Shown in pieces: positions 13,736 through 16,644 of a DNA stretch of 64,000 bases. The notes under the pieces are model-generated. The model saw only the letters and a program-made list of their open reading frames with translations, ran no database searches and had not been told where the DNA came from. The stretch is taken from the NCBI RefSeq assembly GCF_009914755.1, contig NC_060933.1, one strand, 5' to 3'. Each line of letters starts with the position of its first letter. The stretch's first letter is position 1. Position numbers and translations under genes: made by a program. The DNA is from the human T2T-CHM13v2.0 reference genome, Homo sapiens.

Positions 13736-14954
13736 CATGTAAGTGTAGACATATTGACAAACTCTAAGTCTAGTTATGAAGAGTCATTACAACTATAGGC
13801 TTTTAGAGCTGAAAAGCATTTAGTCAACCTCCATACAAGTCATTACATTTTACATATTGTTGTTTCTACATTGAATTGCTAGTAAATCATTTCAATAAGT
13901 CCTTCTTTAAATGCTGTATATATAGTATAAAGGTTTTTTACTACCCTTGAATGAACAAATGTGACTCTCTCAAGCAGAAATGCTCTGGGAACATCCTGCT
14001 GAGCTTTCTTCTTCTGGCCATACAGTCTACATACACAATTAACCTTCCCTTAATTAGATTAACTTGTTCTTTACCTGGGACTGTCAAATTAATACTGTAA
14101 TCAAAGATCTCTTTTAGAGACCTGAATATGTTCCTGCTACGTGTAATGCTAATTACTTCTTTACTAAAAGTAACTAAAAACAGGCTCACTTAATGGTATG
14201 CCTTAGTTAGAAGATCTGGTTTATGTCTCCAAACTAGTGCTACTCAGAACTTCACAAACAATTCTTAAAATCAACTAAAGAAACCTTAGTATTTCTGATT
14301 TTCTTAATTGTTGAAACTCAAAGATTTAATAAAATTCCAGACTAGACCTACTTACATGAAAATATTTATAAGCATTGGCACTGGTTCTTATATTAAAACA
14401 TGATACTGCATAGCATTTAATCAAATGTTATTTATAACAAATTAAATTGCCCTTTCCAAAATAAGCAAAGCATTTGGCTATAGAACCCACAGTATTGTTA
14501 TGTTCACCCCACATATTTCCAAATGCAGACATTTTAACAGTTTCTGGCTATCATTAGCTTGATCCAATTATGAAAAGTGACACTGATGATTACATGACAA
14601 AGAAAGCTCACTTAACCAAATTGACTAAACTTGGTCAATGTCCCCAAGGCAAAATGCTACGAACCACTAGCTGAAGACTAGGATATTAAGCATCAACAGT
14701 ATTTTAAATACCCTCTAACATTCTCAATCAGCCATTGATTAAGCATCTATGGTTTCAATGTTTAGACATTGTGGGAAATGTGAAGATGAGCAAAAAGACA
14801 TACACCCTCCTTTTAAAAAGTTTACAGTCATAGACACTTAAGGAGGAACTGGCAGGATAATGGAAACCTGATTCTTTTGCCATCTAGTTAGATGGTTTTG
14901 ATTCTGTCAATCAGGAACCACCTTGAAATAAAATAATGAATGAGGTCTCTGAAG

Positions 14955-15130
14955 TTTCACCTGGGTTTGAATTCTTGTGTGATGTAGCAAGATATTTCAT
15001 TTCTCTAGTTCTCAGGTCCCTCATCCTAACATGGAGATAAAGTACAGACCTCAGGTTTTCTGTGAGGAGTAAATGTCATATATGTACAATATGTTTTGCA
15101 CATAATATACATATCAAAAATAAATGTTAA
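14955..15130 (+). mobile_element. MIR
   Basis: cctgggtttgaattc...ctcag.tccctcatc...ctgtgaggagtaaatg. Confidence 0.65.
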
Positions 15131-15212
15131 AATATTTAAGGGATGAAGGATACATTAAACAAGAAAGCTCTTTTTTATTGGCAAGAGTGAAAAGTTAAGT
15201 ATTTTGTGTTAC

Positions 15213-15236
15213 ATAAGTACCGATTGCGCCACTGGA
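15213..15236 (-). pseudogene. Internally deleted 5'-half fragment of tRNA-Ile(UAU), inverted, at the 5' junction of an L1
   Basis: Reverse complement is TCCAGTGGCGCAATCGGT-ACTTAT. Recalled tRNA-Ile-TAT is GC-TCCAGTGGCGCAATCGGT-[TAGCGCGCGGT]-ACTTAT-A. The fragment lies inside the L1 TSD. Confidence 0.8.
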
Positions 15237-15782
15237 TGACCCAGCCATCCCATTACTGGATATATACCCAAAGGATTATAAATCATGCTGCTATGAAGAC
15301 ACATGCACACGTATGTTTATTGCGGCACTATTCACAATAGCAAAGACTTGGAACCAACCCAAATGTCCAACAATGATAGACTGGATTAAGAAAATGTGGC
15401 ACGTATACACCATGGAATACTATGCAGCCACAAAAAATGATGAGTTCATGTCTTTTGCAGGGACATGGATGAAACTGGAAACCATCATTCTCAGCAAACT
15501 ATCGCAAGGACAAAAAACCAAATACCGCATATTCTCACTCGTAGGTGGGAACTGAACAATGAGAACACATGGACACAGGAAGGGGAACATCACACAGTGG
15601 GGCCTGTTGTGGGGTGGGGGGAGGGGGGAGGGATAGCATTAGGAGATATACCTAATGCTAAATGATGAGTTAATGGGTGCAGCACACCAACATGGCACAT
15701 GTATACATATGTAACAAACCTGCACGTTGTGCACATGTACTCTAAAACTTAAAGTATAATAGTAATAAAATTAAAAAATATA
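15237..15782 (+). mobile_element. 5'-truncated L1PA (L1PA4-like): end of ORF2 plus 3'UTR
   Basis: ORF2 C-terminal peptide MFIAALFTIAKTWNQPKCPTMIDWIKKMW, G-rich tract, aataaa and A-rich tail; TSD tattttgtgtta at 15200-15211 and 15783-15794. Confidence 0.97.
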
Positions 15783-15899
15783 TATTTTGTGTTAGATGGC
15801 TACATTCAGGACTGATGTATAACACTCACATACTACAAAAGGAAAGAATTTCTTCTTTCTTTCAGGCAATGCCCTGAAACAACTAGCTCACTAGCTGGT

Positions 15900-16090
15900 G
15901 ATCTTAAATAATTGGAGGAAAAGACAATTTAGGAAATACTGATGAAATCTAATACCCTAAATAAAGTGTATTGAGCTTCACCCAAGTGTTTGACAACATG
16001 TCTTACAATATTTTTGTACACATCATGTCTTAAAAATTTTTGTAGACAATATGGAGAAGTTGGAACTGAAAAGAGCCAGGTAGATTTCTT
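15900..16090 (+). mobile_element. L3/CR1 fragment
   Basis: cttcacccaagtgtttgacaacatgtcttac...tgtagacaatatggagaagttggaactg resembles the CR1 RT segment (DFSKAFDKVSH...KMEK). Confidence 0.5.
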
Positions 16091-16194
16091 AAGTGGCAAA
16101 AATCATAAAAAAGACATTGGAATATGTAAATATTAATTTGTAAAGCACTTTTGGACTTGGCTCAGAGTTCCGTCTTCGGTAGAGTAAAAATACC

Positions 16195-16385
16195 AAAGAA
16201 TTTGAAAGTCAGAAAGGTTTAGGTTGGAGTTCTTGCTCTAACTCTTTAGCTGTGAGAGACCTTTGCCTCCTTGGCCATCAGTTTCTTTTGTAATGGGATC
16301 ATATGAAGATAACATAGAAAGCCATTCCTTTTCTGCTTGGCACATACTAAGGGCTCAACAAATGATTTCAATAATAATCATTGTT
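16195..16385 (+). mobile_element. MIR
   Basis: agtcagaaagg.ttaggtt...agctgtg.gagaccttt...tggcacatactaagggctcaacaaatg. Confidence 0.6.
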
Positions 16386-16644
16386 ATTTTTACCTTAATT
16401 TCATTTTTGTAATGAGGTGCAGCTGATTATGGTATCTTGTTTTCGTTTTTATTCACTTTGAAAATACAGTTAGAAAAAAAGCCTTTTCTCTAGGTAGGTA
16501 GTTATGTTTTTTTCTGACTGTGTTCTATGATTCAAGCAACTATCCTGTTTTGAGAAGGTGAACTGCTAAAATATGCTGCCTGTTTCCATTTTCAAACCTG
16601 CCTGTGTGTGAGCAGACAGGTTCCTGATGCTCTAAATTTTAATA

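What the first reader, a model, noticed from the sequence alone, without database searches (positions are those of the whole stretch)
15200..15794. L1 insertion carrying an inverted tRNA-Ile(UAU) 5' half with an apparent modification-skip deletion
Seen: 25 non-L1 bases (cataagtaccgattgcgccactgga) lie between the left TSD (15200-15211) and the first L1 base (15237). Their reverse complement is TCCAGTGGCGCAATCGGTACTTATG. Knowledge (sequence recalled): tRNA-Ile-TAT begins GCTCCAGTGGCGCAATCGGTTAGCGCGCGGTACTTATA, has an intron after position 37, and G26 is the TRMT1 m2,2G site that blocks reverse transcriptases. The insert matches positions 3-20 and 31-36. It stops at the anticodon, like a 5' tRNA half or 5' exon, and lacks 11 nt between two CGGT copies (C17-U20 and C27-U30). 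Inference: the second target strand primed reverse transcription on a different RNA (twin priming in trans), copied U36 to C27, stalled at modified G26, re-annealed by the CGGU microhomology, and then joined the truncated L1 cDNA. If so, this is a genomic record of L1 using a modified tRNA fragment as template. It is antisense to the L1, unlike U6/L1-type chimeras.
Basis: partly seen in the sequence, partly recalled or inferred. Interest (0 to 1): 0.85.

Follow-up and report, generated by a model that had tools for sequence, protein, structure and literature searches.

The report
Backward tRNA-Ile piece on L1 insertion
An old, truncated L1 insertion in a PTPRD intron carries a backward copy of the first half of tRNA-Ile(UAU) at its 5' end, a kind of chimera already described in print, here with an unusual 11-base internal gap whose cause is unproven.

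Summary
A perfect 12-bp target-site duplication (15200-15211 and 15783-15794) encloses 25 non-L1 bases plus a 546-bp L1 3' end. Reverse-complemented, 24 of the 25 bases match tRNA-Ile(UAU) positions 3-20 and 31-36. This was checked against the five tRNA-Ile(tat) genes of the same genome. Eleven bases between two CGGT copies are missing. The 25-mer is unique in the genome.

The architecture is not new. Law & Burns (bioRxiv 2025; Cell Genomics 2026) list 21 tRNA/LINE-1 chimeras, mostly antisense 5' halves (1-37 nt), and propose twin priming. Their table holds an evidently identical case with the same tRNA on chrX, which I found independently as L022. The chr9 locus is not in their table.

The genome also holds 10 stand-alone 3'-truncated retrocopies of this tRNA. 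None of the 11 sibling copies has the gap.

The gap most likely arose at insertion. The L1 body has no internal indels. That modified G26 caused it is plausible but untested.

Verdict: an unlisted member of a known class, with one unexplained feature. Interest is moderate to low.

The parts
15200..15211 (.). Left copy of the target-site duplication (tattttgtgtta). Its 3' end on the + strand is the inferred primer for the tRNA cDNA.
   Evidence: exact 12-nt repeat of 15783-15794, 583 bases apart.
15212..15212 (+). Unexplained base c. It is either one untemplated or misincorporated base opposite A37, or a mutated base of a longer 15-nt duplication (..ttaCat against ..ttaGat). In the second case 15213-15214 'at' is a 2-nt overlap between the target and tRNA A35-U36.
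   Evidence: all 5 genes have A at position 37; the extended repeat 15190-15214 against 15773-15797 differs at this base, and the next two bases match again.
15213..15218 (-). Reverse complement of tRNA-Ile(UAU) positions 31-36 (the anticodon is 34-36).
   Evidence: 6 of 6 match.
15219..15222 (-). accg, the reverse complement of CGGU. This is the single remaining copy of the 4-nt repeat (17-20 or 27-30) at which 11 nt are missing.
   Evidence: the genes read ..CGGTTAGCGCGCGGT.. where the window reads ..CGGT..
15223..15236 (-). Reverse complement of tRNA-Ile(UAU) positions 3-16. The copy stops 2 nt short of the mature tRNA 5' end.
   Evidence: exact match; the window's last bases before 15237 differ from the bases at that place in 29 of 29 sibling L1 copies.
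15237..15782 (+). 5'-truncated L1 (L1PA-type) 3' end: the end of ORF2, the 3' UTR and a short A-rich tail.
   Evidence: about 95% identity to many genomic copies; 18 substitutions and no internal indel against the column majority of 29 siblings; 93.6% identity over 280 nt to the L022 element, which the published table labels L1PA3 if L022 is that row (inferred); the translation reads through in the ORF2 frame. Pfam gave no hit for the 98-aa piece.
15783..15794 (.). Right copy of the target-site duplication.

Best explanation
This is one L1-mediated insertion event that joined two cDNAs made from the two sides of a staggered break.

1. On the bottom strand, target-primed reverse transcription copied the last roughly 546 nt of an L1PA RNA from its poly(A).
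2. On the top strand, the 3' end ..GTGTTA (or ..TTAGAT, if the duplication is 15 nt) was extended on a second RNA, the 5' part of tRNA-Ile(UAU). Copying started in the anticodon (U36 or A35) and ran towards the tRNA 5' end.
3. After copying at most U30-C27, the growing end (..ACCG) left the template. It re-paired with the identical CGGU at 17-20, continued to U3, and so skipped 11 nt, including G26 and U20a.
4. The two cDNAs were joined without visible microhomology. Gap repair produced the 12-bp duplication.

Shown: the sequence arrangement, the source tRNA, the strand polarity, the position of the gap, and that sibling events exist.
Inferred: the order of events, the enzyme at each step, and the reason for the jump.

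The element has no evident function. It is an intronic fossil in PTPRD.
For: Arrangement, duplication and tRNA match.

Polarity: the + strand carries the antisense tRNA running from position 36 down to 3, directly after the left duplication. That is what extension of the top-strand 3' OH on a tRNA template gives. A template switch of the first-strand cDNA, or an RNA-ligated chimera, would put the tRNA in sense (reasoning; the same logic appears in the Law & Burns passages).

Independent sibling: L022 on chrX has duplication taaatcccacattctt, poly-T, antisense L1 3' end, tRNA-Ile(UAU) 2-37/38 in sense, then the duplication again. The target end there also finishes in ..TTA.

Published class: 21 tRNA/LINE-1 chimeras, mostly half-length (1-37) and antisense, with duplications found in 8 of 8 checked.

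This tRNA part is a recurrent L1-type template. All 11 of 11 partial genomic copies start at tRNA nt 1-2 and end at pre-tRNA nt 32-52. Six of the 10 stand-alone copies have direct repeats of 11-21 matched bases.

Gap arose at insertion: the 546-bp L1 body has no internal indels, and only 4 deletion events occur in 29 sibling copies (about 15.7 kb). A later deletion inside a 35-nt stretch is therefore expected in under 1% of cases.

No gene or other copy with the gap exists in the genome.
Against: - The cleavage site at the L1 poly(A) side reads AG/TATT on the + strand. It does not resemble the TT/AAAA motif quoted in the paper. Six of the 8 published tRNA cases checked had an endonuclease motif.
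- No microhomology is seen at the join between the two cDNAs.
- One base (15212) fits neither tRNA nor a perfect duplication.
- The jump is a single case: 0 of 11 sibling copies show any such deletion.
- The step that produced the gap cannot be told from sequence. It could be RNA copying, second-strand DNA synthesis, or end joining.
- No outgroup genome was available, so neither the empty site nor the age of the gap was checked.
Confidence: 0.72

Rival explanations
1. Same chimeric insertion, and the jump was forced by RNA modification. ORF2p stalled at m2,2G26 of a modified tRNA fragment (with acp3U at 20/20a just beyond it) and escaped through the CGGU microhomology.
For: - The source genes have G at position 26, with the G10-C25 and C11-G24 pairs in front of it.
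- Passages of PMC11831618 say TRMT1 methylates all known tRNAs with G26, and that it acts on an intron-containing pre-tRNA in vitro.
- The same passages say m2,2G blocks AMV RT. With a retroelement-derived RT it gives T/C misincorporation and occasionally A or a deletion.
- They also say tRNA-Ile isoacceptors carry acp3U at position 20.
- The jump must have happened after copying no further than C27, the base before G26.
- In 11 of 11 siblings G26 never reads T or C, and positions 20/20a are unchanged. That fits the idea that fully copied templates were unmodified and that modification is normally a barrier.
Against: - The position is weak evidence: the CGGT pair is 1 of only 3 four-nt repeat pairs in the 38 nt that could give a deletion of 5 nt or more.
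- The D stem begins right after G26, so structure predicts the same stall point.
- No data were seen on how L1 ORF2p handles m2,2G.
- The modification state of tRNA-Ile(UAU) itself was not checked, because paper reading closed before Table S1 could be read.
- It is a single case.
Confidence: 0.22
2. The tRNA piece was inserted complete (positions 3-36), and the 11 nt were lost later by replication slippage between the CGGT repeats.
For: - Four-nt direct repeats in a GC-rich, partly palindromic stretch are classic slippage substrates (general knowledge).
- The element is old: 3.3% substitutions against the sibling majority.
- L022 and 10 other copies show that full copying is the norm.
Against: - There are no internal indels in the adjoining 546 bp of the same age.
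- There are 4 deletion events in about 15.7 kb of sibling L1 sequence, so under 1% is expected for 35 nt.
- The 24 retained tRNA bases, including two CpGs, carry no substitution at all.
Confidence: 0.12
3. The break was closed by end joining that captured a free tRNA cDNA or other filler fragment, in either orientation. The target strand did not prime on the tRNA.
For: - There is no microhomology at the L1 junction.
- One odd base sits at the other junction.
- The cleavage site is atypical.
Against: - The published cases are predominantly antisense rather than 50:50.
- The fragment starts in the anticodon loop, as do the stand-alone target-primed copies, whose duplications overlap the tRNA end. 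An example is the 6-nt overlap CTTATA in L021.
- A clean 12-bp duplication is present.
Confidence: 0.08
4. A tRNA-half retrocopy was already at the site and the L1 landed next to it, or the similarity is chance.
For: Stand-alone retrocopies of this tRNA part exist: 10 in this genome.
Against: - The tRNA piece lies inside the duplication, between the left copy and the L1. A pre-existing piece would lie outside.
- An 18+6 exact match to one tRNA, with a unique 25-mer, excludes chance.
Confidence: 0.02

Closest known systems
tRNA/LINE-1 chimeric insertions (Law & Burns, bioRxiv 10.1101/2025.02.02.635956; Cell Genomics 2026, PMC13174262). I read passages of both versions and the whole of supplement mmc3 sheet 7.
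   Same: - A 5' tRNA half is antisense to a 5'-truncated L1 3' segment, directly abutting it and inside one target-site duplication.
- Twin priming is the proposed mechanism.
- The table row chrX:7986936-7986973 (tRNA-Ile-ATA:2-39 with a 278-bp L1PA3 on the other strand) evidently corresponds to my L022, which uses the same tRNA as the window.
   Different: - The chr9 locus is not among the 21 rows.
- Its tRNA part is only 24 nt because of an 11-nt internal gap.
- Its cleavage site is not motif-like.
- The paper text has 0 occurrences of 'modification' and 'microhomology', so gaps or modification effects are not discussed there.
Tailless retropseudogenes of tRNAs (Schmitz et al. 2004, as described in Noll et al. 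2015, PMC5322556; passages read).
   Same: - L1-type insertion of a 3'-truncated tRNA, processed or unprocessed, without an A tail.
- Truncation falls in loops, and the insertion site is complementary to the last 2-18 nt of the RNA.
- The 10 stand-alone Ile(UAU) copies found here fit this description.
   Different: The window's tRNA piece is not a stand-alone insertion. It shares its duplication with an L1 and is inverted relative to it.
L1 5' inversions by twin priming (Ostertag & Kazazian 2001, known to me from the citation in the passages and from recall).
   Same: The second target strand primes a second reverse transcription, and the two cDNAs are joined in opposite orientation within one duplication.
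   Different: The second template is a different RNA (a tRNA), not an internal part of the same L1 RNA.
U6/L1 chimeras
   Same: A small Pol III RNA is joined to the 5' end of a truncated L1 within one duplication.
   Different: U6 is full length and in sense (98.3% per the passage), and is explained by RNA ligation or template switching. Here the small RNA is half-length and antisense.

Membership tests
tRNA/LINE-1 chimeric insertion (antisense half-tRNA type) | The non-L1 segment derives from a tRNA | tested here: met
   18/18 and 6/6 matches to the five tRNA-Ile(tat) genes of the same genome.
tRNA/LINE-1 chimeric insertion (antisense half-tRNA type) | The segment directly abuts the 5' end of a 5'-truncated L1 that ends in an A tail | tested here: met
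   L1 homology starts at 15237, the base after the tRNA piece. The tail is short and A-rich.
tRNA/LINE-1 chimeric insertion (antisense half-tRNA type) | One target-site duplication encloses both parts | tested here: met
   exact 12-nt repeat at 15200-15211 and 15783-15794.
tRNA/LINE-1 chimeric insertion (antisense half-tRNA type) | L1 endonuclease motif (TT/AAAA-like) at the insertion site | tested here: not met
   the site reads AG/TATT. The motif was also absent in 2 of the 8 published cases checked, so it is frequent rather than obligatory.
tRNA/LINE-1 chimeric insertion (antisense half-tRNA type) | Both parts arrive at the same time in a multi-species alignment | not testable with these tools
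   No primate genomes are held.
tRNA/LINE-1 chimeric insertion (antisense half-tRNA type) | The tRNA is antisense to the L1, starts near tRNA nt 1 and ends in the anticodon loop | tested here: met
   positions 3 to 36, on the opposite strand to the L1.
Twin priming | Overlap between the priming target end and the template, and microhomology where the two cDNAs join | tested here: inconclusive
   A 2-nt overlap is possible only if the duplication is read as 15 nt with a mismatch. No overlap exists at the L1 join.
Modification-induced reverse-transcriptase skip | The skipped stretch begins at a base known to be modified in this tRNA | tested here: inconclusive
   G26 is in the genes. The general statement that all G26 tRNAs are TRMT1 targets comes from passages. 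Data specific to tRNA-Ile(UAU) were not seen, because paper reading closed.
Modification-induced reverse-transcriptase skip | The skip recurs in independent copies, or a misincorporation footprint appears at the site | tested here: not met
   0 of 11 sibling copies have a deletion. G26 reads G or A (a CpG transition) and never T or C.
Modification-induced reverse-transcriptase skip | L1 ORF2p is blocked by m2,2G | not testable with these tools
   This needs an enzyme assay. The searches listed no paper on it.

The most novel reading that the evidence does not exclude
The 11-nt gap is a genomic fossil of L1 reverse transcriptase meeting a fully modified tRNA fragment. It stalled one base before m2,2G26 and escaped by re-pairing its 4-nt end with the identical CGGU in the D loop, bypassing both m2,2G26 and acp3U20a. 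The 11 sibling copies read through G26 cleanly, and some carry intron bases. Together this would mean that tRNA base modification normally shields mature tRNAs from being copied into the genome by L1. Visible tRNA retrocopies would then come mostly from unmodified nuclear precursors.
Probability: 0.2. Interest if true: 0.6.

Novelty: new member of a known kind. Interest (0 to 1): 0.33.

Why it matters
The locus itself is an inert intronic fossil.

- It shows that catalogues built on RepeatMasker tRNA annotation miss short or gapped tRNA pieces at L1 5' junctions, so the published count of 21 is a lower bound.
- The gapped-pattern search used here recovers such cases.
- The family of Ile(UAU) copies suggests a testable question: do tRNA modifications (m2,2G26, acp3U20/20a) limit which tRNA molecules L1 can copy, and are the templates cleaved halves, splicing 5' exons or whole pre-tRNAs primed internally?

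One gapped copy cannot answer that question.

Tried and rejected
- **tRNA and RNA-family scans of the window.** ARAGORN on 14500-16500 found no tRNA. Rfam at E up to 10 on 15100-15400 gave only three chance-level hits, none of them tRNA. The fragment is too short and gapped for both.
- **Pfam.** The 98-aa ORF2 tail translation gave no family. L1 identity therefore rests on DNA matches.
- **Folding.** The isolated 38-nt 5' exon is no more stable than shuffles (z 0.5). It gives no structural argument for the jump.
- **tRNA as primer.** A tRNA that primed second-strand synthesis, or primed on L1 RNA, would put tRNA sense 5' of L1 sense, or put its 3' end next to L1. The observed polarity excludes this.
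- **First-strand template switch or RNA ligation (U6/L1 type).** Rejected for the same reason.
- **Source gene or retrocopy already carrying the gap.** None exists in this genome.
- **L023 (=L006) as a tRNA-Alu chimera.** Rejected. A diverged duplication brackets the tRNA half alone, and the Alu lies outside it (my reading of the flanks printed; the automatic repeat search did not report this pair).
- **Earlier findings of this scan.** Not open.
- **Table S1 of the TRMT1 paper.** Whether tRNA-Ile(UAU) itself shows the G26 signature there remains unchecked.
- **Literature searches.** Those for L1, tRNA and modification footprints listed nothing on modification-linked gaps in L1-made tRNA copies. 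Two searches do not prove absence.

Full report
**What is in the sequence**

One search shows a perfect 12-nt direct repeat, tattttgtgtta, at 15200-15211 and 15783-15794. Between the copies lie 25 bases that are not L1 (15212-15236). After them comes an L1 3' end (15237-15782) that finishes in a short A-rich tail.

The repeat finder reports this as the longest of the two direct-repeat families it found in 15000-16000. It also shows that the repeat can be extended to 15 nt with one mismatch (..gttaCat on the left..gttaGat on the right).

The L1 assignment rests on DNA. The 546 bases gave 5690 first-look candidates in the window's own genome, and the best 40 scored at about 95% identity over the full length. 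The translation reads through in the ORF2 frame, although Pfam has no model that catches this 98-aa tail. In 29 of 29 sibling L1 copies the bases before TGACCCAG differ from the window's ..ctgga. L1 homology therefore begins exactly at 15237, and the join shows no shared bases.

**The source of the 25 bases**

The 25-mer is unique in the 3.1-Gb assembly at up to two mismatches. A pattern made of the same bases with a free gap at the CGGT site hit 8 places:
- Five carry one identical 35-mer. ARAGORN calls them tRNA-Ile(tat) genes of 93-96 nt. In the alignment their exons are almost identical (one base varies in the 3' exon), while a variable stretch of 19-21 bases follows ..ACTTATA, which is the intron.
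- Two are partial copies.
- One is the window, the only hit in which the gap is closed.

The reverse complement of 15213-15236 equals tRNA positions 31-36, one CGGT, and positions 3-16. That makes 18/18 plus 6/6 matches, with 11 nt missing between the CGGT at 17-20 and the one at 27-30. Base 15212 does not fit A37 of any gene. ARAGORN and Rfam see nothing in the window itself, as expected for so short a piece.

**Siblings in the same genome**

A DNA search with one whole tRNA-Ile(tat) gene found 16 places: the 5 genes and 11 partial copies. All 11 partial copies start at tRNA nt 1 or 2 and end at pre-tRNA nt 32-52, in the anticodon loop or inside the intron.

Ten are stand-alone insertions. 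Six of these have direct repeats of 11-21 matched bases (L015, L016, L017, L018, L020, L021). Three have weaker repeats of 8-10 (L019, L024, L025). For L023 I read a diverged repeat by eye in the flanks printed; the repeat search did not report it.

Four copies carry intron bases: 14 nt in L015 and 17 nt in L017, matching two different source genes, and 3 nt each in L016 and L024. In L021 the duplication overlaps the tRNA end by 6 nt (CTTATA).

These fit the 'tailless retropseudogenes' of 3'-truncated, processed or unprocessed tRNAs. As described, their truncations map to loops, and their insertion sites are complementary to the last 2-18 nt of the RNA (passages of PMC5322556).

The eleventh copy, L022 on chrX, has the same build as the window. 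It reads: duplication taaatcccacattctt, poly-T, antisense L1 3' end (280 nt aligned to the window's L1 at 93.6%), tRNA-Ile(UAU) 2-37/38 in sense, then the duplication again. There the L1 side has a motif-like cleavage site (AT/AAGA). The target end that abuts the tRNA finishes in ..TTA, as it does in the window.

**Prior art**

Law & Burns (bioRxiv 2025; Cell Genomics 2026) report 21 tRNA/LINE-1 chimeric insertions:
- The tRNA parts are typically half length (1-37 nt) and predominantly antisense to the L1.
- Duplications of 9-19 bp were found in 8 of 8 cases checked, and an endonuclease motif in 6 of 8.
- They propose twin priming on tRNA halves made by RNases (passages).

I read their tRNA sheet in full. 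It contains chrX:7986936-7986973, tRNA-Ile-ATA:2-39, next to a 278-bp L1PA3 on the other strand. This is evidently L022: same chromosome, tRNA, span, L1 length and polarity. That identity is inferred, because the table uses another assembly's coordinates.

The sheet has no chr9 row, so the window's locus is not listed, presumably because a gapped 24-nt piece is not annotated as tRNA. Their text has no occurrence of 'modification' or 'microhomology'.

**Mechanism**

On the + strand the tRNA is antisense and runs from position 36 down to 3, directly after the left duplication copy. That is the product expected if the top-strand 3' OH of the staggered break was extended on a tRNA template while the bottom strand copied L1 RNA from its poly(A).

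A template switch of the first-strand cDNA or an RNA-ligated chimera would place the tRNA in sense. A tRNA acting as primer would place its 3' end, not its 5' end, next to the L1. Those readings are excluded by polarity. A pre-existing tRNA retrocopy at the target would lie outside the duplication.

Three things do not fit neatly:
- The L1-side cleavage site is AG/TATT, unlike TT/AAAA.
- The two cDNAs join without overlap.
- Base 15212 is unexplained. It is either one untemplated or misread base opposite A37, or a later substitution in a 15-nt duplication. In the second case 'at' is a 2-nt overlap with A35-U36. I cannot choose between these.

**The 11-nt gap**

Against the column majority of its 29 closest relatives, the adjoining L1 has 18 substitutions (3.3%) and no internal indel. 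Those 29 copies together show 4 deletion events in about 15.7 kb. A later deletion inside a 35-nt stretch is therefore expected in under 1% of such loci, and the 24 retained tRNA bases carry no change at all. I therefore put the gap at the time of insertion, with odds of roughly 6 to 1.

The nascent strand must have left the template after copying no further than C27, because its end ..ACCG matches 17-20 only up to that point. Copying stopped within 0-4 nt before G26.

The TRMT1 paper supports the chemistry (passages of PMC11831618):
- TRMT1 methylates all known tRNAs with G26 and can act on an intron-containing precursor in vitro.
- m2,2G blocks AMV RT. With a retroelement-derived RT it gives T/C misincorporation and occasionally A or a deletion.
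- tRNA-Ile isoacceptors also carry acp3U at position 20, which lies in the skipped stretch or at its edge.

The evidence is nevertheless weak:
- The 38-nt 5' exon contains only three 4-nt repeat pairs able to give a deletion of 5 nt or more. The CGGT pair is the one that avoids G26, so position alone gives a likelihood ratio of about 3.
- The D stem starts right after G26, so structure predicts the same stall.
- 0 of 11 siblings show a deletion. In them G26 reads G or, in 2-3 copies, A (a CpG transition), never T or C, and positions 20/20a are unchanged.

That last result cuts both ways. It shows read-through is the rule. It is also what one would see if only unmodified precursors are copied in full.

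I could not check the modification state of tRNA-Ile(UAU) itself, because paper reading closed. I found nothing on how ORF2p handles m2,2G (searches, listings only).

**Template**

The published explanation is cleaved tRNA halves. For this tRNA, 4 of 11 siblings contain intron bases and start at varied points. Intron-containing pre-tRNA primed internally is therefore at least one source, as the tailless-retropseudogene work argued. For the window and L022 the start at U36 to A38 fits a cleaved half, a splicing 5' exon, or internal priming in the AU-rich anticodon loop equally well.

**Verdict**

The twin-priming reading is supported but already published, including a case with the same tRNA. 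The locus is an unlisted member of that class. The modification-skip idea is a reasonable hypothesis resting on one gap.

From the 3.3% divergence, and from my recollection of L1PA ages, the insertion is probably of hominoid or catarrhine age.

Noticed in passing
L015, L016, L017, L018, L019, L020, L021, L023, L024, L025 (tRNA at about 1501-1540 of each locus): Ten stand-alone 3'-truncated retrocopies of tRNA-Ile(UAU). All begin at tRNA nt 1. Four carry intron bases from at least two different source genes, which shows intron-containing pre-tRNA was reverse-transcribed. In L021 the duplication overlaps the anticodon loop by 6 nt.
   Followed up: partly
L022:1166-1550 (G000 chrX, about 7.54 Mb): A second antisense tRNA-Ile(UAU)/L1 chimera with a 16-nt duplication and no internal gap. 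It is evidently the chrX row of the published table. About 45 nt of extra non-L1 sequence lies between the L1 3' end and the final A run.
   Followed up: partly
L018 and L020, tRNA position 35: Both copies read ..TTCTA where the gene has ..TTATA. These are two of only three changes across the 11 copies that are not CpG transitions (the third is G12T in L021). It may be a misreading near the start of copying, or target-derived bases rather than tRNA.
   Followed up: no
L023 (=L006), about 20 nt after the tRNA half: An Alu starts about 20 nt downstream of the tRNA half. A diverged duplication brackets the tRNA half alone, so this looks like two separate insertions and not a chimera.
   Followed up: partly
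window 15199-15200 and 15211-15212: Neither nick site implied by the duplication resembles the L1 endonuclease motif. The bottom strand reads ..AATA/CTTA and the top strand ..GTTA/GATG. The first nick may not have been made by the L1 endonuclease.
   Followed up: no
window 15435-15450 and 15660-15675: A 16-nt imperfect direct repeat (AAATGATGAGTT[C/A]ATG) lies inside the L1 body. It was not compared with other L1 copies.
   Followed up: no
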